Below, one piece after another: positions 1-15,744 of a stretch of 55,829 nt of DNA; within the stretch, counting starts at the first letter, position 1; every line of letters starts with the position of its first letter. The stretch spans positions 1 to 55,829 of IMG/VR virus record IMGVR_UViG_3300042541_001626; one strand, written 5' to 3'. The notes beneath the pieces are model-generated. The model saw nothing but the letters and a program-made list of their open reading frames with translations. It was not told the DNA's origin and made no database searches. The translations under genes were made by a program, and so were the position numbers. Origin of the DNA: a virus. Its lineage: Duplodnaviria; Caudoviricetes.

Positions 1-374
1 ACTAAATCCTTATGTTCATTGTCACTGAAGTCTCTCTAATAATGAACACCATAGTAACTACCTCATAACTTACTCTATCCGTTACTTATATAATACCACA
101 CAATAAAAATATTACCATAGATTATATCTTATAACATATAATACCATTAAAAATTTACTATCTATATGTCCTTACATATAATGGGGATTTTATTCACCTA
201 CATAGAGACCTTCCTAAATAAATGGGGGATTAGTTTACACTAAACAATCTACTGTAAACACCCACATAAATGGGGGGATATAATTATGAAGGAATGACGT
301 AGTGAATGAAATGAACGGGAGGAAGAGTGAGTAATTATATCCCTTCATTTATTATATAATTAAAATATTATTAC

Positions 375-382
375 TATCTTTG
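375..382 (+). promoter_or_regulatory. Bacteroidetes-type -7 promoter element (TAnnTTTG)
   Basis: TATCTTTG just upstream of the first array-bearing gene. The same motif lies at 3057, 11743, 27023, 28002 and 28684, and on the minus strand ahead of several genes. Confidence 0.6.
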
Positions 383-387
383 TGATT

Positions 388-843
388 ATGGTTAGTGATA
401 AATTAAAATCGATTATTTTTAAGAAGTTATACAGTGAGTTATCTCATTTGGAGATTATTAGGTTTAAGTCTGAGATATGGTTTATTGATAGAGAAGTTAG
501 ATGTTGGTATTTTATTTATAATGATAATGGAACTATGTGGTGGAAAAATTCTTTCTTTCGTAGTTTCTTTGAATTCTTTTCCATTACTGAAATCGATGAG
601 TTCGGATCAATTCTTTCTTCTTGGGTGGGAGAGGTCTTAAATTGTAAGGTAGACAGAGCCAGTTTTTTTCAATTGGCATTACCTTTACAGGTGGAAGAGG
701 TCTTAAATTGTAAGGTAATTACAACAGATCCAAGGAAAGAATTTTTTCTGTTCGCGGTGGAAGAGGTCTTAAAACATAAGTCAGAAAGGTTGGGTCATCC
801 CCCTGTTAGTGAGAATGTTGTTATTAATAATACAGAGAAATGA
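388..843 (+). CDS. Array-bearing protein, family A (MISDRL..WFIDRE..WW N-domain plus 22-aa repeat tail)
   Basis: Paralog of 840, 1314, 3081 and 15394. ATG at 388 aligns with the paralog starts. Tail made of VEEVLNCKV units. Confidence 0.85.
   Translation: MVSDKLKSIIFKKLYSELSHLEIIRFKSEIWFIDREVRCWYFIYNDNGTMWWKNSFFRSFFEFFSITEIDEFGSILSSWVGEVLNCKVDRASFFQLALPLQVEEVLNCKVITTDPRKEFFLFAVEEVLKHKSERLGHPPVSENVVINNTEK
624..791 (+). CRISPR. In-frame CRISPR-like array, 3 repeats / 2 spacers
   Basis: Repeats at 624, 690 and 756 (66-nt period), e.g. GGTGGAAGAGGTCTTAAATTGTAAGGTAATTACAAC. Spacers are 30 nt and unique. Last repeat is degenerate. Confidence 0.65.
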
Positions 844-1310
844 TTAGTGATAGATTGAAAGGTATTATACATAAGAAGTTGTGTGAGGATTTATCTCATT
901 TGGAAATTATTGAGTGGTATGGTGAGATGTGGTTTATTGATAGAGAGGAAAAGTTTTGGTACTTTATATATAATAAGTCTAATGGTGAGATGTGGTGGAG
1001 ATATTCTTTCTTTACCTCTTTCTTTCTTCTTTTCTCTTTACCCTCTGATGAATTTACCAGTATTCTTTCTTCTTGGGTGGAAGAGGTCTTAAATTGTAAG
1101 GTGTTGTCAATGCCTTCGGTTTTTTCATATCGTCATCTGTTGGTAGAAGATGTCCTAAATTGTAAGGTATCGTCAACCACACCAATAACAATCATCAATG
1201 TCGGAATGGTGGAAGATGTCCTAAATTGTAAGGTAACCAAAACTACCCACATGTACAATAATGGTGAAATTTGGGTGGAAGAAGTTTTAAATAATAATAT
1301 AACCGAATAG
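840..1310 (+). CDS. Array-bearing protein, family A
   Basis: Paralogous N-domain, four VEEVLN units, ATGA overlap with the upstream gene. Confidence 0.85.
   Translation: MISDRLKGIIHKKLCEDLSHLEIIEWYGEMWFIDREEKFWYFIYNKSNGEMWWRYSFFTSFFLLFSLPSDEFTSILSSWVEEVLNCKVLSMPSVFSYRHLLVEDVLNCKVSSTTPITIINVGMVEDVLNCKVTKTTHMYNNGEIWVEEVLNNNITE
1076..1309 (+). CRISPR. In-frame CRISPR-like array, 4 repeats / 3 spacers
   Basis: Repeats at 1076, 1142, 1208 and 1274, with 30-nt spacers. Terminal repeat is degenerate. Confidence 0.65.
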
Positions 1311-1313
1311 ATT

Positions 1314-1856
1314 ATGATTAGTGATAGATTGAAAGGTATTATATATAAGAAGTTGTGTGGGGATTTATCTCGTGTGGAGATTATTCATTATAGAACTTAT
1401 GTATGGTTTATTGATAGAGAAGATAAGTGTTGGTATTTAAGGTACGATAACTCTGATGGTCAACTCCTATGGAAGTACAGTTTCTTTTGTGATTTCTTCA
1501 CCATCTTTACAATGGATCGTGACGAATTTACCCCCATCATTTCTTCTTGGGTGGAAGATGTTCTGAATTGTAGGGTAAACACAACGGGAGTTGGAATTGT
1601 TAGTAAAAAAGAGAGGGTGGAAGAGGTCTTAAATTGTAAGGTAGACACAACAGCAACAAGACACCAAAGGTTTTATTGTCTGGTGGAAGAGGTCTTAAAT
1701 TGTAAGGTAAACACAACAGGAAGTTCATTATTAGAATTAGGTGGTAAGGTGGAAGAGGTTCTGAATCATAAAGTAAACTCAACTACCCACATGTACACTA
1801 ATGGTGAAATTCAGTCGGGGGAAGTATTAAACCACAATGTGGTGAATAATGTATAA
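1314..1856 (+). CDS. Array-bearing protein, family A
   Basis: Paralogous N-domain, five repeat units. Confidence 0.85.
   Translation: MISDRLKGIIYKKLCGDLSRVEIIHYRTYVWFIDREDKCWYLRYDNSDGQLLWKYSFFCDFFTIFTMDRDEFTPIISSWVEDVLNCRVNTTGVGIVSKKERVEEVLNCKVDTTATRHQRFYCLVEEVLNCKVNTTGSSLLELGGKVEEVLNHKVNSTTHMYTNGEIQSGEVLNHNVVNNV
1550..1849 (+). CRISPR. In-frame CRISPR-like array, 5 repeats / 4 spacers
   Basis: Repeats at 1550, 1616, 1682, 1748 and 1814 (degenerate), e.g. GGTGGAAGAGGTCTTAAATTGTAAGGTAAACACAAC. Confidence 0.7.
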
Positions 1857-1884
1857 TTAAATTATTTCATTATATTTATACTAT

Positions 1885-2328
1885 ATGAAATGTCTAATTA
1901 CAGAGTCACAAAGGGATGATCTATTGAAGAATCTTATTAAAGAACATGGGTATTACTTTGTTAGTAAGATAGTTGGTACTGATTATTTGTCTGAGGAGGT
2001 CTTTCATAGTAACCCTATGGAATTCTTATCTTTGTATGATGACCTTGATCATTTTGAAAGCTCTGAGAAACCTGGTCTTACTATATATCGTTATGAGAAA
2101 GGCGATAATATTTTTCTTGTGGCGAACTCGACTGGTGATGTATATATTAACTATGACGCCATATATGGAGCCCTTGCTATGTTTAAAGAGTCTCAGATAT
2201 ACTCCGTTAGGACTAGACTGCTCTTAAATTGGTTGAGGGACTCATTTGGGATTAAGTCCGATAGAAACCATATGTGGACTATCCACCCTGATCAGGATTA
2301 CTTTTCAGATTATCTACACTTAACTTAA
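1885..2328 (+). CDS. Hypothetical protein, family B (array-less paralog of 12492)
   Basis: Shares NPMEFL, YRYEKGxN and VYIxY with 12492..13004. MKCLITESQ leader and upstream TATTTAT. Confidence 0.8.
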   Translation: MKCLITESQRDDLLKNLIKEHGYYFVSKIVGTDYLSEEVFHSNPMEFLSLYDDLDHFESSEKPGLTIYRYEKGDNIFLVANSTGDVYINYDAIYGALAMFKESQIYSVRTRLLLNWLRDSFGIKSDRNHMWTIHPDQDYFSDYLHLT

Positions 2329-2335
2329 CCTTATT

Positions 2336-2647
2336 ATGTCACACGAATTAGAAAATGAAAATCTTGAGAAAGAACTTAATAGATTCCTTGATAAGATTGT
2401 TCCCGTTAAATACCCCGAGGTTAACCATATAATTGTTCAGGGTGAACTTTGGAGAACTTCTGGTAATTTCTACTATACCATTAATATTAATCCCACCTTT
2501 GCTGGATCTAAGAGATTACAAGATGATCCTAAGTTTGAAAATGAACTATTCGGGTATATCTTTAAAACCTCTGATTTTGCCCTTAAAATGTTTAAGCAAG
2601 GAAACACTGGTCATTATACCACTGAGGTTAGATGGTTTTGGGATTAA
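2336..2647 (+). CDS. Hypothetical protein
   Basis: Operonic ORF, 103 aa. Confidence 0.7.
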   Translation: MSHELENENLEKELNRFLDKIVPVKYPEVNHIIVQGELWRTSGNFYYTININPTFAGSKRLQDDPKFENELFGYIFKTSDFALKMFKQGNTGHYTTEVRWFWD

Positions 2648-2735
2648 TCTATAATGGAAAATATTTGCCGTTTTTATCTCTATAGTGGAAAATAATCTCC
2701 ATATATAATCTTTTCCCCCATTATAATGGAAAACG

Positions 2736-3002
2736 TTAATTAATCCTTGCTGATTTAAGAATCACCTCTAACATCTGAATCTTGTCCCTGTCGTCCTTGG
2801 TCTTCTTTGATTTACCCTTAAGATAATTGATTGCGTCCATAATCTCATCCCGCTTGTTATTTGTCGGCTTTGGTTTGACAACCTCCTTATCCTTTACTAC
2901 CTTTACATCATTGTTACCAAACAATATGTCCAAAGCTCTCCTGATACGATCTTTGTCGTCTACAAATAACCATAAGAAAATGTGTACTACTAATTTATCC
3001 AT
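2736..3002 (-). CDS. Hypothetical protein
   Basis: ORF with probable start MDKLVVH. Confidence 0.6.
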   Translation of the reverse strand: MDKLVVHIFLWLFVDDKDRIRRALDILFGNNDVKVVKDKEVVKPKPTNNKRDEIMDAINYLKGKSKKTKDDRDKIQMLEVILKSARIN

Positions 3003-3080
3003 ATTGTAAAGATACAAAATATTCCCTAATAATTTACCTATATTAAAAAAAAATCCTATCTTTGTTATAACGAATAAATT

Positions 3081-3875
3081 ATGATTAGCAATAGACTCAA
3101 AAACCTCATCTTTAAAAAGTTATATAAACACTTAAGCGGCGTAGAAATAATCCACTATGATGACTGTATATGGTTTATCGATAGAGAAACTAAGTTTTGG
3201 TATTTTAACTATCATACACTAGAAAATAAATTATGGTGGAGAGGCGCCTTCTTCTTCGATTTTTTTTTCCTTTTCTCGATGGATCATTCTGAGTTTGTTC
3301 CCATTATTTCTGAGTGGGTGGAAGAGACCTTAAATTGTAAGGTAAGCACAACTCGAAGACGAAGAACTGAGAGAGTTAATGAGGTGGAAGAGGTCTTAAA
3401 TTGTAAGGTAAGCACAACCCAAGATGGTGCACATGCTGAGGATGATTTGGTGGAAGAGACCTTAAATTGTAAGGTAATCACAACACGCAACGGAAACTAC
3501 GATGCCACACTTTTGGTGGAAGAGACCTTAAATTGTAAGGTAATTACAACAATAAATGAGCAATTCAAATACATAAACAAGGTGGACGAGGTCTTAAATT
3601 GTAAGGTAGACACATCTAAAAAAGAAAGTGCTAATTATGAATTAAAGGTGGAAGAGGTCTTTTATCGTGGTGCATTATGTGGAAAGGTGGAAGAGGCCTT
3701 AAATTGTAAGGTAGACACAACAAAAAATTTATCAATCCCATTATACCCAATGGTGGAAGATGTGTTAAATTGTAAGGTAAACACAGCTAGTTCCAATCAA
3801 GGGTTTTTACCACCAAAGGTGGATGAGGTTTTAAATTGTAAGGTAGACACATCTGCGATGGAAAGACCACTTTAG
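3081..3875 (+). CDS. Array-bearing protein, family A (longest tail)
   Basis: Paralogous N-domain plus 9 repeat units. TATCTTTG promoter at 3057. Confidence 0.85.
   Translation: MISNRLKNLIFKKLYKHLSGVEIIHYDDCIWFIDRETKFWYFNYHTLENKLWWRGAFFFDFFFLFSMDHSEFVPIISEWVEETLNCKVSTTRRRRTERVNEVEEVLNCKVSTTQDGAHAEDDLVEETLNCKVITTRNGNYDATLLVEETLNCKVITTINEQFKYINKVDEVLNCKVDTSKKESANYELKVEEVFYRGALCGKVEEALNCKVDTTKNLSIPLYPMVEDVLNCKVNTASSNQGFLPPKVDEVLNCKVDTSAMERPL
3317..3853 (+). CRISPR. In-frame CRISPR-like array, 9 repeats / 8 spacers
   Basis: Repeats at 3317, 3383, 3449, 3515, 3581, 3647 (truncated), 3686, 3752 and 3818. Consensus GGTGGAAGAG(GT/AC)CTTAAATTGTAAGGTANNCACAAC with unique 30-nt spacers. Confidence 0.75.
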
Positions 3876-3925: not shown

Positions 3926-4261
3926 ATGAAATACATTATAACAGAATCTAAACTTAATGCTGCGATTGATGAGTTCATCACAAAACAATTTGGTAAGTTG
4001 CATCATCAGTTAGACGGTAATAAACTTACATTGGTTAATGATAATGGTGACCCCATGATTATGATTACTGATAAAGATAATACTTATTTTGTTTGGGTGT
4101 TAGATGATGTTTGGAGAAGTGGATTTTTGATGTTCTCCATGAAACGTTTTGTGAATATGCAGCCCGTGTTACATAAATGGTTACATAAACATTATAACAT
4201 ACCTGTGGAAGAATCAAACATCTCCACATTTTCACGAGGTGAAGAAGAATACGTATACTAA
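3926..4261 (+). CDS. Hypothetical protein with MKYIITE leader
   Basis: TATTTAT upstream, leader motif. Confidence 0.8.
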   Translation: MKYIITESKLNAAIDEFITKQFGKLHHQLDGNKLTLVNDNGDPMIMITDKDNTYFVWVLDDVWRSGFLMFSMKRFVNMQPVLHKWLHKHYNIPVEESNISTFSRGEEEYVY

Positions 4262-4262
4262 T

Positions 4263-4712
4263 ATGAAATACATTATAACAGAAAATAAAATGTGTAGTAT
4301 TATGGAGAAGATGCTTAACGATGAGTTTGAAGGGTTCTCCGATATCTATTACTCTTGGGCTAACTTTAATTGTGGCATGGGAGAATGTTGTGATATGTAT
4401 GCCGTCGGTTTTGTTTTACCTAAAGCTCATTATGATAACTATCTATTTAAACTTGTTGATGGTGAACACTATGATGATGATGGTGATTACCCTGATGAAC
4501 TTTCTGATGATTTACCCGAACCTTGTTATGAACACCCTGATATCATGGAACCCAGGTTTGACACTATCCTTATCGGTGAGGAAATGTATGAAAAGATGGA
4601 AAACTATTTTAATTTCTTTAACGATTGGGAAAATGAATTACTACGTACTTTGAATCGTCTCTTCCATATGGACGCCAAAGAAATTATGACATTACCTTTG
4701 TCACCATTTTAA
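4263..4712 (+). CDS. Acidic hypothetical protein with MKYIITE leader
   Basis: Start reassigned to ATG 4263 (leader motif). Confidence 0.75.
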   Translation: MKYIITENKMCSIMEKMLNDEFEGFSDIYYSWANFNCGMGECCDMYAVGFVLPKAHYDNYLFKLVDGEHYDDDGDYPDELSDDLPEPCYEHPDIMEPRFDTILIGEEMYEKMENYFNFFNDWENELLRTLNRLFHMDAKEIMTLPLSPF

Positions 4713-15393: not shown

Positions 15394-15744
15394 ATGATTA
15401 GTGATCGATTGATAGATATTATACATAAGAAGTTATACACAGACTTAAATAATGTTGAGATAATCCATCACTATAATAGTATATGGTTTATCGATAGAAA
15501 AGAAAAGTTTTGGTATTTCAAATATGAAACCAATACTCATAAACTATATTGGAAAGGATCTTACTTCGCAAACTTTTTTACATTTTTCTCCATGGGTGAA
15601 CGTGAGTTTACTGGTATTCTTTCCGATTGGTCGGAAAAGATTTTCAACTGTAAAGTGAAAATAACCCAAAGACTTGAAATTAATATGGATCAACATTTGG
15701 AAGAGGTTCTTAATTATAAGAAAAGCGATGATCTCATTTCATAA
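15394..15744 (+). CDS. Family A paralog with a degenerate two-repeat tail
   Basis: MISDRL..WFIDRKEKFWY. Degenerate repeats at 15630 and 15696, 66 nt apart. Confidence 0.8.
   Translation: MISDRLIDIIHKKLYTDLNNVEIIHHYNSIWFIDRKEKFWYFKYETNTHKLYWKGSYFANFFTFFSMGEREFTGILSDWSEKIFNCKVKITQRLEINMDQHLEEVLNYKKSDDLIS

What the first reader, a model, noticed from the sequence alone, without database searches (positions are those of the whole stretch)
388..3875. CRISPR-like arrays translated in frame as variable C-terminal tails of a phage protein family
Seen: four paralogous genes (388, 840, 1314, 3081) share an ~80-aa N-domain followed by 3, 4, 5 and 9 copies of a 36-nt repeat separated by unique 30-nt spacers. 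The period is exactly 66 nt, or 22 codons. The repeat reads VEEVLNCKVxTT and each spacer gives ~10 unrelated residues. Ordinary protein tandem repeats do not usually keep a fixed-length, fully non-homologous insert. Established: 36+30 nt is the geometry of type II and type VI-B arrays. Inference: a Cas1-Cas2-type integrase (host-encoded or elsewhere in the genome) treats this coding motif as a repeat and adds spacers, so one locus yields both diversified proteins and crRNA-like RNAs. No cas gene is visible in this window.
Basis: partly seen in the sequence, partly recalled or inferred. Interest (0 to 1): 0.95.

Follow-up and report, generated by a model that had tools for sequence, protein, structure and literature searches.

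The report
CRISPR array translated inside phage genes
A family of genes in large freshwater bacteriophages ends in what looks like a genuine CRISPR array (Cas13b-type 36-base repeats and unrelated 30-base spacers) that is kept in the reading frame and translated, which ties phage genes to bacterial adaptive immunity in a way I could not find described.

Summary
Four paralogous genes (388, 840, 1314, 3081), plus a degenerate fifth (15394), carry a 79-aa N-domain followed by 66-nt units.

Across 91 related sources (302 unique spacers), the variable block is exactly 30 nt. It sits one base out of codon phase, so the boundary is set at the DNA level. Spacers are all-or-none related. They look like random DNA of host-like G+C content (40%) filtered only for open frames.

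The 36-nt repeat belongs to the repeat family of type VI-B (Cas13b) arrays of Flavobacteriales. Two models built only from seven bacterial Cas13b repeats pick out the phage repeats in exact register and on the coding strand, with no control hits. Synonymous sites are frozen at the bases conserved in bacterial repeats. The remaining variation is synonymous, and off-frame unit lengths are purged, so the sequence is dual-coded.

Orthologues differ by whole units. The window is a jumbo phage, not a giant virus. No cas gene lies in the window or in the related records searched. Related contigs carry a Cas12f-like gene with a canonical mini-array.

Not shown: integrase action, crRNA processing, or protospacers (one suggestive 27/30 match to a host aldehyde dehydrogenase gene). 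My best reading is host Cas1-Cas2 insertion plus recombination, with the transcript probably acting as a Cas13b decoy or hijack.

The parts
388..843 (+). g1: N-domain (388-624) plus array; repeats (36 nt, DNA register) at 624-659, 690-725 and 756-791 (degenerate)
   Evidence: repeat model hits at 690-725 (22.2 bits) and 624-659 (10.8 bits)
840..1310 (+). g2: N-domain (840-1076) plus array; repeats at 1076-1111, 1142-1177, 1208-1243 and 1274-1309 (degenerate, carries the stop codon)
   Evidence: its last spacer is homologous to the last spacer of g3
1314..1856 (+). g3: N-domain (1314-1550) plus array; repeats at 1550-1585, 1616-1651, 1682-1717, 1748-1783 and 1814-1849 (degenerate). Spacer 1718-1747 matches an aldehyde-dehydrogenase-family gene at 26-27/30
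   Evidence: (1682-1717 is the best hit, 23.3 bits); structure model
3081..3875 (+). g4: N-domain (3081-3317) plus the longest array; repeats at 3317-3352, 3383-3418, 3449-3484, 3515-3550, 3581-3616, 3647-3682 (degenerate, 39-nt unit), 3686-3721, 3752-3787 and 3818-3853
   Evidence: contigs of another lake run join 3316 to 3515, skipping 3 units (weak evidence)
15394..15744 (+). fifth, degenerate paralog: the same N-domain followed by two decayed repeats with a 10-aa spacer
3926..4712 (+). two 'MKYIITE...' small-protein genes (3926-4261 and 4263-4712; a third at 1885-2328). They are probable distant paralogs of the N-domain family and carry no array here
   Evidence: hhalign probability 73.7%, E 2.9e-5. 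In L010 members of this family end in a repeat-like 36-mer

Best explanation
The 3' parts of these genes are CRISPR-type arrays. The 36-nt direct repeats belong to the repeat family used by type VI-B (Cas13b) systems of Flavobacteriales/Bacteroidota, and they are separated by 30-nt spacers. Because 36+30 = 66 nt = 22 codons and the repeat is open in one frame, the array is read through as a C-terminal tail with no predicted fold, fused to a small alpha/beta N-domain whose last helix is encoded by the first repeat.

Shown: repeat-family membership by model. DNA-level block boundaries that are out of codon phase. Spacers that are unrelated to each other and random-like, with host-like composition. 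Whole-unit differences between orthologues. Two simultaneous constraints on the repeat: peptide-level (synonymous-only drift, open frame, in-frame unit lengths) and nucleotide-level (synonymous sites frozen at the bases conserved in bacterial repeats).

Inferred: new units are inserted by a host Cas1-Cas2 integrase acting in trans, as shown experimentally for native VI-B arrays that lack cas1/cas2 in Flavobacterium columnare. They are then shuffled, lost and duplicated by homologous recombination between repeats. Units with in-frame stops or off-frame lengths are purged.

Inferred function (my odds about 35-40% within this explanation): the abundant sense transcripts present [30-nt spacer][36-nt repeat] units, the layout of a mature VI-B crRNA. 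They load host Cas13b with harmless guides, acting as an RNA decoy or hijack. Translation is retained because the conserved C-terminal cassettes, or translation itself, matter.
For: Geometry and boundaries: 421 complete 66-nt units and 302 unique blocks from 91 sources. Entropy is 0-1.7 bits at positions 1-35, 1.87-1.99 bits at positions 36-65, and position 66 is G in 284/302.

All-or-none spacers: of 45,451 pairs, 17 differ at 7 or fewer positions and the rest match a column-shuffle null.

Random-like spacers: amino-acid and codon-position composition matches random DNA filtered for open frames. There is 1 in-frame stop in 3020 codons, against 4.2-8.4% in the other five frames. G+C is 40.1%, against 32.8% for open 30-mers from the phages and 39.1% for open 30-mers from Flavobacteriales loci.

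Repeat family: the window's repeat with N at variable positions hits only 3 places in genome contigs, all of them 36+30 arrays, two shown to lie beside Cas13b. Independently found Cas13b loci give repeats 26-28/36 identical to the window's, in the same register. Covariance model R1, built from 7 bacterial repeats only, was run on the window with filters off and both strands. Its 11 best hits are all phage repeats, full length, + strand, in register (17-23.3 bits), and the best hit outside the arrays scores 11.9 bits. PWM from the same 7 repeats: 233 hits at 20 bits or more in phage DNA, 218 in register with the gene arrays, 0 in reversed and 0 in shuffled controls. The mean score is +15.2 in register and -9.5 to -31 at shifts of 1-3 nt. 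R1 hits only the 4 Cas13b genomes among 151 Flavobacteriales genomes.

Dual coding: among 69 distinct consensus repeats, GTG 64, GAG 62, AAG 60 (AAA 2), GTA 53, ACA 56/56 and preceding G 67. Family codon usage for these is 15%, 38%, 49%, 22%, 27% and 20%. Other synonymous sites drift. Off-frame unit lengths: 2/440 in phage arrays against 7/88 in native arrays.

Unit turnover: orthologues with N-domains at least 93% identical differ by whole cassettes, in 25 groups. Unshared units: 707 at the 5' end, 147 internal, 368 at the 3' end.

Context: related contigs L060, L075 and L062 carry a Cas12f/V-U3-like gene. Downstream of it in L060 and L075 lies a canonical non-coding mini-array of the same repeat family.

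Literature (passages read): VI-B repeats are 36 nt, spacers 30 nt, and the mature crRNA is 66 nt, spacer then repeat; VI-B loci lack cas1/cas2 (10.1101/092577). In-trans acquisition through II-C Cas1, from phage and host DNA (PMC8092290).
Against: No cas gene (Cas13b, Cas12f TNB domain, Cas1) was found in the window or in three related records of 107-195 kb. These are only 19-65% complete. The host is unknown, and a link to a Cas13b-bearing host is not shown.

The phage repeat departs from two stated VI-B hallmarks. Its 5' end reads GGUG rather than GUUG, so pair 2-35 is broken, and the U-run in the loop is reduced to UU. Three single repeats fold no better than shuffles (z +0.55, +0.65, -1.6).

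Model scores are modest and depend on the lineage. Whole-record searches of the three divergent phages gave 0 of 3 with a hit at E<=0.1. Rfam gave nothing.

The best-scoring canonical array on a phage contig sits beside a Cas12f-like gene, not Cas13b, so the repeat family may not be exclusive to VI-B.

No convincing protospacer was found. 302 spacers against 548 kb of related phage DNA scored no better than shuffled controls. Searches of 50,697 phage records gave E>=1. In 401 Flavobacteriales genomes nothing exceeded 49.1 bits. The one block-exact match is 26-27/30 and is not significant by BLAST statistics alone, and no closer match appeared in a phylum sample (0 of 401).

Insertions are often internal and cassette order can be swapped, so recombination alone explains much of the mosaic.

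Strong selection on the peptide and on the open frame is not explained by a pure RNA decoy. The unit-skipping joints come from short-k-mer contigs crossing a 35-nt repeat and may be assembly artefacts.
Confidence: 0.55

Rival explanations
1. Protein first. The phage exploits CRISPR adaptation as a diversity generator, so that each acquired spacer becomes a new 10-residue peptide cassette in a hypervariable tail (for example for binding or blocking variable host factors). Any crRNA-like RNA is a side product. This is.
For: The open frame is maintained through 302 blocks, although about 50% of random blocks would carry a stop. Off-frame unit lengths are purged, 2/440. Drift in the repeat is synonymous only, and 3'-terminal cassettes are conserved. 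There are several paralogs per genome, and 302 clusters at 50% identity keep the 22-aa period.
Against: The tail has no predicted fold (pLDDT 26-50). Cassette composition equals random translation, with no position-specific preference. No function or partner is known. Frozen synonymous sites show that the nucleotide sequence itself is under constraint.
Confidence: 0.15
2. Tolerated by-product. The 3' end of an ordinary phage gene happens to resemble a host repeat and is an off-target substrate for the host integrase. Because a unit is 22 codons, insertions without stops are nearly neutral and accumulate. The arrays have no function.
For: The first repeat encodes the last helix of the N-domain. 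The related MK.IITES genes in L010 end in repeat-like 36-mers, one duplicated at 65 nt and frame-shifted. 6 of 125 arrays continue after a stop. The spacers look like unselected DNA.
Against: Arrays are near-universal in a large, old family with lineage-specific repeats. Nucleotide-level conservation at synonymous sites holds across lineages. There are four to five array-bearing paralogs in one 56-kb window.
Confidence: 0.15
3. Phage-autonomous system. The arrays are used by a phage-encoded effector (such as the Cas12f/V-U3-like nuclease seen on related contigs, or one on the unsequenced 80% of this genome) against competing phages or the host, as virus-borne mini-arrays and huge-phage CRISPR systems are.
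For: The Cas12f-like ORF plus a canonical mini-array of the same repeat family lies about 1.6 kb from an 8-unit gene array in L060. The window is only about 19% of a genome.
Against: The in-gene repeats of L060 are only 16-20/36 identical to its own mini-array repeat. The Cas12f-like gene is found in 3 of 91 sources, all one population, and in 0 of 4 records. No spacer targets related phages.
Confidence: 0.12
4. Ordinary protein tandem repeat with a hypervariable linker, diversified by selection and shuffled by recombination. The likeness to Cas13b repeats is coincidence or convergence.
For: There is a conserved peptide repeat and an open frame. Recombination is evident from swapped cassette order. 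No cas genes and no protospacers were found. Single-repeat model scores are modest.
Against: The variable block is out of codon phase with step-like boundaries. There are no intermediates between cassettes. Block G+C is 7 points above the genome and not equilibrated. Synonymous sites are frozen against codon usage at exactly the bases conserved in bacterial repeats. In-register PWM/CM hits have zero controls at 20 bits or more. The lengths are 36+30 exactly, as in VI-B.
Confidence: 0.08

Closest known systems
Type VI-B (Cas13b) CRISPR arrays of Flavobacteriales/Bacteroidota
   Same: 36-nt repeat, 30-nt spacer and 66-nt unit. Repeat sequence is 26-28/36 identical, in the same register. Orientation is such that the transcript reads spacer then repeat, as in the mature 66-nt crRNA. 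The terminal repeat is degenerate. There is no adjacent cas1/cas2.
   Different: It lies inside a translated phage ORF with no Cas13b nearby. The 5' end is GGUG rather than GUUG, the loop U-run is shortened and the stems are weakened. Unit lengths are restricted to multiples of 3. Unit insertions are not strictly leader-proximal.
RNA anti-CRISPRs (Racrs) / solitary repeat units on phages (PMC10651486, passages read)
   Same: A phage-borne mimic of a host CRISPR repeat that could occupy Cas proteins.
   Different: Racrs are small non-coding RNAs and mostly single repeats. That survey found none for type VI, and it masked confident ORFs before searching. Here there are multi-unit arrays inside ORFs with diverse spacers. 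Inhibition has not been tested.
Virus-borne mini-CRISPR arrays (PMC6858448, search listing only) and CRISPR-Cas systems of huge phages (PMC7162821, search listing only)
   Same: CRISPR arrays carried by viruses, often without adaptation genes. The canonical mini-array in L060/L075 is of this kind.
   Different: As far as I recall, those arrays are non-coding and their spacers target competing viruses or host genes. Here the arrays are translated, and no target was found.
In-trans spacer acquisition by cas1-less arrays (F. columnare VI-B using II-C Cas1; PMC8092290, passages read)
   Same: It provides a demonstrated route by which an array without its own integrase gains 30-nt spacers, from both phage and host DNA.
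   Different: It was demonstrated for a chromosomal array with a leader. Whether a phage ORF can serve as a substrate is untested.
Multi-core precursor peptides with hypervariable cassettes between conserved flanks (cyanobactin PatE type; recalled, no call)
   Same: A conserved N-terminal part followed by repeated conserved flanks around hypervariable short cassettes.
   Different: No processing enzymes are nearby. The cassette boundaries are out of codon phase, and the flanks match a CRISPR repeat at the nucleotide level.

Membership tests
CRISPR array (generic) | Near-identical direct repeats of fixed length within an array | tested here: met
   36-nt repeats are homogeneous within arrays and differ between genomes.
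CRISPR array (generic) | Unique spacers of constant length with no mutual homology | tested here: met
   421 of 440 units are 66 nt. Only 17 of 45,451 spacer pairs are related, and the rest match the null.
CRISPR array (generic) | Spacers derive from foreign or host DNA (protospacers, PAM) | tested here: inconclusive
   No match beyond controls. One block-exact 26-27/30 match lies in an aldehyde-dehydrogenase-family gene in 4 genomes, on the same strand and in the same frame. No closer match in 401 more genomes.
CRISPR array (generic) | Polarised growth at a leader end, with a degenerate distal repeat | tested here: inconclusive
   Distal repeats are degenerate. There is a 5' bias of 707:368 but 147 internal differences and swapped orders. 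The array pairs counted are not independent.
CRISPR array (generic) | Associated cas genes | tested here: not met
   0 of 4 records with Cas1 or the Cas12f TNB domain, and 0 of 3 with Cas13b. The records are 19-65% complete. Orphan arrays are known, so this does not exclude the class.
Type VI-B repeat family | 36-nt repeat and 30-nt spacer (10.1101/092577) | tested here: met
Type VI-B repeat family | Sequence fits a model of Cas13b-associated repeats, in register and in the Cas13b-sense orientation | tested here: met
   R1: the top 11 hits in the window are the repeats. PWM: 218 in-register hits at 20 bits or more, with 0 controls. Divergent lineages are weaker: 0 of 3 records at E<=0.1.
Type VI-B repeat family | Complementary 5'-GUUG / CAAC-3' ends and a poly-U loop | tested here: not met
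   The phage has GGUG...CAAC, so pair 2-35 is broken in most lineages. The L060 lineage has ...CACC, which restores it. The loop reads AAAUUG. Folding energies are not better than shuffles.
Type VI-B repeat family | Bound and processed by Cas13b | not testable with these tools
   Needs biochemistry or small-RNA sequencing.
RNA anti-CRISPR (Racr) | Small non-coding repeat mimic that inhibits a Cas complex | tested here: not met
   The units lie in translated ORFs. Inhibition cannot be tested here.
Structured protein tandem repeat (solenoid-like) | Repeat units predicted to form a regular fold | tested here: not met
   The AlphaFold2 tail has pLDDT 26-50. No PDB fold match, best E 0.38.
Diversity-generating retroelement | Variable region templated by a nearby near-identical repeat | tested here: not met
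   No spacer has a related copy elsewhere in the loci. No reverse transcriptase appears among the 25 families listed for the 88 ORFs; 6 further families were not shown.

The most novel reading that the evidence does not exclude
Bacterial CRISPR adaptation machinery writes new codons into phage genes. Each acquired 30-nt spacer becomes a new 10-residue cassette of a translated protein tail, so a phage uses (or is used by) the host's immune memory system as a protein diversity generator. The same transcript meanwhile supplies Cas13b-type guide or decoy RNAs, making it a truly bifunctional RNA/protein array.
Probability: 0.15. Interest if true: 0.97.

Novelty: new variant of a known kind. Interest (0 to 1): 0.85.

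Why it matters
CRISPR arrays are regarded as non-coding. Here an array of the Cas13b repeat family is maintained in frame in a large gene family of jumbo phages: 956 database proteins, and 302 clusters at 50% identity.

If the inferred mechanism holds, three things follow. Host adaptation machinery can edit phage coding sequence. Phages may counter or hijack RNA-targeting type VI immunity through repeat mimicry; a published survey found no such mimics for type VI and masked ORFs by design. And sequences can be selected at once as peptide, as integrase substrate and as guide RNA scaffold.

It also warns that repeat finders which mask ORFs, and gene callers which ignore repeats, will both miss such loci.

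Tried and rejected
Giant-virus origin. I first suspected this from DUF5754/DUF7487 hits and the A+T richness. I rejected it after the PHROG and Pfam census.

Rfam. No family matched the arrays.

Repeat hairpin. RNAfold of single repeats gave no clear signal.

Bacteroidota promoter motif TAnnTTTG. It is not enriched (84 observed, 93 expected), so I dropped it as host evidence. Shine-Dalgarno-like motifs upstream of only 3 of 52 ORFs remain a weak hint of a Bacteroidota-type host; this rests on general knowledge.

Protospacer searches:
- 302 spacers against 548 kb of related phage DNA scored no better than shuffles.
- The window arrays against 50,697 phage records gave E>=1 only.
- The arrays against 401 Flavobacteriales genomes gave only low-complexity noise plus the aldehyde dehydrogenase candidate.
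- A 66-nt query centred on that spacer against 401 genomes of the phylum gave 0 hits.
- 88 native Cas13b spacers against the phage loci gave chance-level hits only.
- The L060 mini-array spacers against the phage loci gave self hits only.

Cas13b on viral contigs. A single-protein scan found no relative, but it reaches close relatives only.

Fold search of the protein model against the PDB found nothing at E<=0.001. The protein atlas gave only low-score viral hypothetical clusters.

Read laying. Unit-skipping joints were seen in contigs of other lake runs, but these are short-k-mer contigs crossing a 35-nt repeat. I keep them as weak evidence only. Stretches without cover in that call mean nothing.

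Whole-record search with R1 in three divergent phages found nothing at E<=0.1.

Supplementary files of the papers were not seen; the Racr paper's supplementary repeat lists might hold type VI-like candidates.

Papers. Passages were read for PMC10651486, PMC8092290 and 10.1101/092577. All other papers are known from search listings only. My statement that no prior description of translated CRISPR arrays was found rests on searches only.

Full report
WHAT IS THERE

On the + strand lie four paralogous ORFs: g1 388-843, g2 840-1310, g3 1314-1856 and g4 3081-3875. Each has a 77-79-aa N-domain followed by units reading VEEVLNCKVxTT plus about 10 variable residues. The repeat core occurs 20 times in these genes. 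16 of 17 intervals are exactly 66 nt; the exception is a 39-nt unit at 3648-3686. A fifth, decayed paralog lies at 15394-15744. The assembly is this single 55.8-kb contig.

WHAT KIND OF GENOME

I first suspected a giant virus. A census of 88 ORFs changed that. It shows SmpB, DUF3310, a response regulator, thioredoxins, DNA methylases, and strong PHROG hits to homing and HNH endonucleases. Related contigs reach 307 kb, and CheckV puts the window at about 19% of a genome. This is a jumbo phage of lake water. Only 3 of 52 ORFs have a Shine-Dalgarno-like motif upstream. By general knowledge that fits Bacteroidota hosts, but the host is not established.

THE FAMILY

A word-indexed search gave 956 proteins at E<=0.01, all from metagenomes, with lengths stepping by 22 aa. 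In the best 120, 365 of 412 motif-to-motif distances are 22 aa and 22 are 44 aa. I fetched 10 loci from IMG/VR and 80 from metagenomes. A profile of the N-domain alone finds 302 clusters at 50% identity. The N-domain is nearly always at the N-terminus. Different lineages carry their own repeat peptide but keep the 22-aa period.

NUCLEOTIDE ANATOMY

The 91 sources (548,197 bases) hold 421 complete 66-nt units and 302 unique variable blocks. Entropy per position is 0-1.7 bits at positions 1-35, jumps to 1.87-1.99 bits at positions 36-65, and falls to 0.42 at position 66, which is G in 284 of 302.

So the DNA-level repeat is 36 nt (position 66 plus positions 1-35) and the variable block is exactly 30 nt. 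The block begins at the third base of a Thr codon and ends at the second base of the last 'spacer' codon. Selection on peptides would give boundaries on codons. Gene conversion would give gradients. A step-like boundary out of codon phase points to replacement or insertion of a 30-nt block of DNA.

THE BLOCKS ARE UNRELATED AND RANDOM-LIKE

Of 45,451 block pairs, 17 differ at 7 or fewer positions; these are orthologous copies on related contigs, plus the g2/g3 terminal cassette. None differ at 8-10 positions. From 11 differences upward the distribution matches a column-shuffle null.

Composition is 40.1% G+C, against 31% for the loci. Codon-position and amino-acid composition match random DNA filtered only for the absence of in-frame stops, and are unlike the N-domain. 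Open 30-mers drawn from the phage loci would have 32.8% G+C. Those drawn from Flavobacteriales chromosomal loci have 39.1%.

The frame is clearly maintained. There is 1 stop in 3020 in-frame codons, against 4.2-8.4% in the other five frames, although only about 50% of random blocks would be open. 6 of 125 arrays continue beyond a stop.

THE REPEAT IS A CAS13B-TYPE REPEAT

Rfam has no matching family. The repeat in its DNA register reminded me of type VI-B repeats, so I tested this.

The window's repeat, with N at variable positions, matched only three places in 596 Gb of prokaryotic genomes: Bergeyella zoohelcum and two Capnocytophaga species. All three are arrays of 36-nt repeats and 30-nt spacers. 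In Bergeyella and C. stomatis the array lies next to Cas13b (NF038190, 839 and 432 bits). No Cas13b was found in the C. cynodegmi genome.

Because my choice of N positions was guided by recollection, I then gathered Cas13b loci by protein alone. This found 3 of 401 genomes in a phylum sample and 7 of 401 in an order sample. All 9 loci show 66-nt periodicity, and 8 give a clear repeat. The repeats are 26-28/36 identical to the window's (1682-1717) in the same register.

I built a covariance model from 7 distinct bacterial repeats only and ran it on the whole window, both strands, filters off. It returned 25 hits at E<=10. The best 11 are all phage repeats: full length, + strand, starting exactly at the G of position 66 (17-23.3 bits, E 0.0015-0.068). 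The best hit outside the arrays scores 11.9 bits.

A simple PWM from the same 7 repeats gives 233 hits at 20 bits or more in the phage DNA, of which 218 are in register with the gene arrays. There are none in reversed or shuffled controls. The mean score is +15.2 in register and -9.5 to -31 when shifted by 1-3 nt.

In 151 Flavobacteriales genomes the model hits only the four that carry Cas13b. Those four were training genomes; 0 of the 147 others reached E<=0.001.

According to the original description (passages read), VI-B repeats are 36 nt with complementary GUUG/CAAC ends and a U-rich loop. Protospacers are 30 nt. The mature crRNA is 66 nt, with the 30-nt spacer followed by the 36-nt repeat. 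Cas13b processes its own array, and the loci lack cas1/cas2. The phage mRNA carries exactly that layout in the sense orientation.

DUAL CODING

Between phage lineages the repeat varies almost only at synonymous sites, and within an array it is homogeneous. Taking one consensus per array (69 distinct consensus repeats), some synonymous sites drift freely: Val-4 is GTC 26, GTA 24, GTG 12, GTT 4, and Leu-5 uses six codons.

Others are frozen against the family's own codon usage: Val-1 GTG 64/69 (usage 15%), Glu-3 GAG 62/69 (38%), Lys-8 AAG 60 against AAA 2 (49%/51%), Val-9 GTA 53/69 (22%), Thr-11 ACA 56/56 (27%), and the base before the repeat G 67/69 (20%). These are repeat positions 1, 4, 10, 25, 28 and 34, where the bacterial alignment is invariant or nearly so.

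Unit lengths tell the same story. In native arrays 7 of 88 units are not multiples of 3. In the phage arrays only 2 of 440 are not, and 17 of the 19 units that are not 66 nt long are still multiples of 3. So the sequence is constrained both as a peptide or open frame and as a nucleic-acid repeat.

THE PROTEIN SIDE

AlphaFold2 with a 36-sequence alignment gives a small alpha/beta N-domain (pLDDT 66-81). Its last helix (residues 69-89) runs into the first repeat. The array-encoded tail is at pLDDT 26-50. There is no PDB fold match (best E 0.38), no Pfam family, and only low-score leads in the protein atlas. The neighbouring MK.IITES genes are probable distant paralogs.

HOW ARRAYS CHANGE

Among genes whose N-domains are at least 93% identical (25 groups), arrays differ by whole cassettes. 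The 3' cassettes are usually shared. Differences lie at the first or second position, and some are internal. Cassette order can be swapped.

Over 276 array pairs that share a cassette, unshared units number 707 on the 5' side, 147 internal and 368 on the 3' side. The pairs are not independent, and truncated sequences inflate the 3' count. This fits leader-side addition plus frequent recombination between repeats, but recombination alone is not excluded as the cause of the mosaic.

Contigs from other lake runs show variants lacking 1 or 3 units of g4, one unit of g3, and the whole of g2. These are short-k-mer contigs crossing a 35-nt repeat, so the evidence is weak.

CAS GENES AND CONTEXT

Cas13b was searched in three related records (107-195 kb, 37-65% complete). 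The Cas12f TNB domain and Cas1 were searched in those three and in the window. None was found. No close relative of one Cas13b was found on IMG/VR contigs.

Contigs L060, L075 and L062 belong to one population and encode a 437-aa protein matching Cas12u3 and Cas12f models over its full length (E about 1e-90), with Pfam Cas12f1-like TNB and OrfB_IS605 domains. L062 holds only its first 193 residues. Directly downstream in L060 and L075 lies a canonical non-coding mini-array: 3 intact repeats with 30-nt spacers. It gives the best model scores of all (32.6 bits by CM, 36.8 by PWM). It is about 1.6 kb from an 8-unit gene array whose repeats are only 16-20/36 identical to it. So these phages do carry CRISPR components, and the repeat family is not strictly tied to Cas13b.

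SPACER SOURCES

No convincing protospacer was found. One lead remains. Block 1718-1747 (the third spacer of g3) matches a gene of four Flavobacteriales genomes at 26-27 of 30 positions, with the alignment ending at both block edges. The match is on the sense strand and in the same frame, GSSLLELGG. In one of the four (L121) I identified the gene as an L-piperideine-6-carboxylate dehydrogenase of the aldehyde dehydrogenase family. By BLAST statistics over 401 genomes this is not significant on its own, and a phylum-wide sample gave nothing closer (0 of 401).

INTERPRETATION

The evidence best fits a CRISPR-type array of the VI-B repeat family embedded in frame in a phage gene. It would grow by integrase-mediated insertion of 30-nt spacers with duplication of the 36-nt repeat (inferred). 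The in-trans route demonstrated in F. columnare is a precedent, with spacers taken from both phage and host DNA. Recombination then reshuffles the units, and selection filters for an open frame.

What it does is open. I favour an RNA decoy or hijack of Cas13b. The Racr survey found repeat mimics on viruses for all types except VI and masked ORFs before searching, so it could not have seen these. Against this, the strong selection on translation is unexplained by a pure decoy, and it keeps the protein-diversification reading alive.

Also against the reading: the phage repeat breaks the GUUG/CAAC stem at position 2 and has a shortened U-run. Divergent lineages score poorly. No host link exists.

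NOVELTY

Five literature searches found nothing describing translated or in-ORF CRISPR arrays, or type VI repeat mimics on phages. I rate this a new variant of a known kind (virus-borne CRISPR arrays and repeat mimics), with high interest. If spacers are truly written into a functional protein, it would be categorically new.

Noticed in passing
L060:857-2170 (-) and L060:~440-700 (-); the same in L075; the gene's first 193 residues only in L062: A 437-aa Cas12f/V-U3-like nuclease gene is followed by a canonical non-coding mini-array: 3 intact 36-nt repeats with 30-nt spacers and degenerate end copies. Its repeat is the best match to the Cas13b repeat model. This looks like a compact phage-borne type V-like CRISPR system next to an in-frame array gene.
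   Followed up: partly
L010:9565-11228 (+): Three 'MKIIITES...' small-protein genes each end in a repeat-like 36-mer with GTTG...ACAAC ends. The PWM scores are higher on the antisense strand. One gene has two copies 65 nt apart, which shifts the frame and truncates the ORF, making a one-spacer 'array' in a second gene family.
   Followed up: partly
window 1885-2328, 3926-4261, 4263-4712: This is a paralog family of small proteins starting MK(Y/C)(I/L)ITE. hhalign gives 73.7% probability of homology to the N-domain of the array genes. Database protein P0122 fuses this prefix to two tandem N-domains.
   Followed up: partly
window 1-380: The contig end is non-coding and holds several short reiterated motifs (ATATAATACCA-like and AATGGGGGAT-like). 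It may be a genome terminus or a regulatory region.
   Followed up: no
window 2648-2707: Two 29-nt direct repeats 31 nt apart (TCTATAATGGAAAAT...) lie in the intergenic region between convergent genes.
   Followed up: no
window, whole: The phage encodes SmpB (the trans-translation factor), a response-regulator receiver domain, several thioredoxin-fold proteins, three or more DNA methyltransferase families, a pyrimidine-dimer glycosylase, and LAGLIDADG and HNH homing endonucleases.
   Followed up: no
L007:493-624: One array carries a TAG as the last codon of a spacer (the conserved G is kept) and is followed by a further intact repeat. An array therefore continues beyond its stop codon. In all, 6 of 125 arrays do this.
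   Followed up: partly
L060:2530-3027 and other lineages: In some lineages the repeat ends ...ACACC (Thr to Pro in the peptide). This restores base pair 2-35 of the terminal stem. It may be selection on RNA structure at the cost of an amino-acid change. C occurs at that position in 45 of 302 units.
   Followed up: partly
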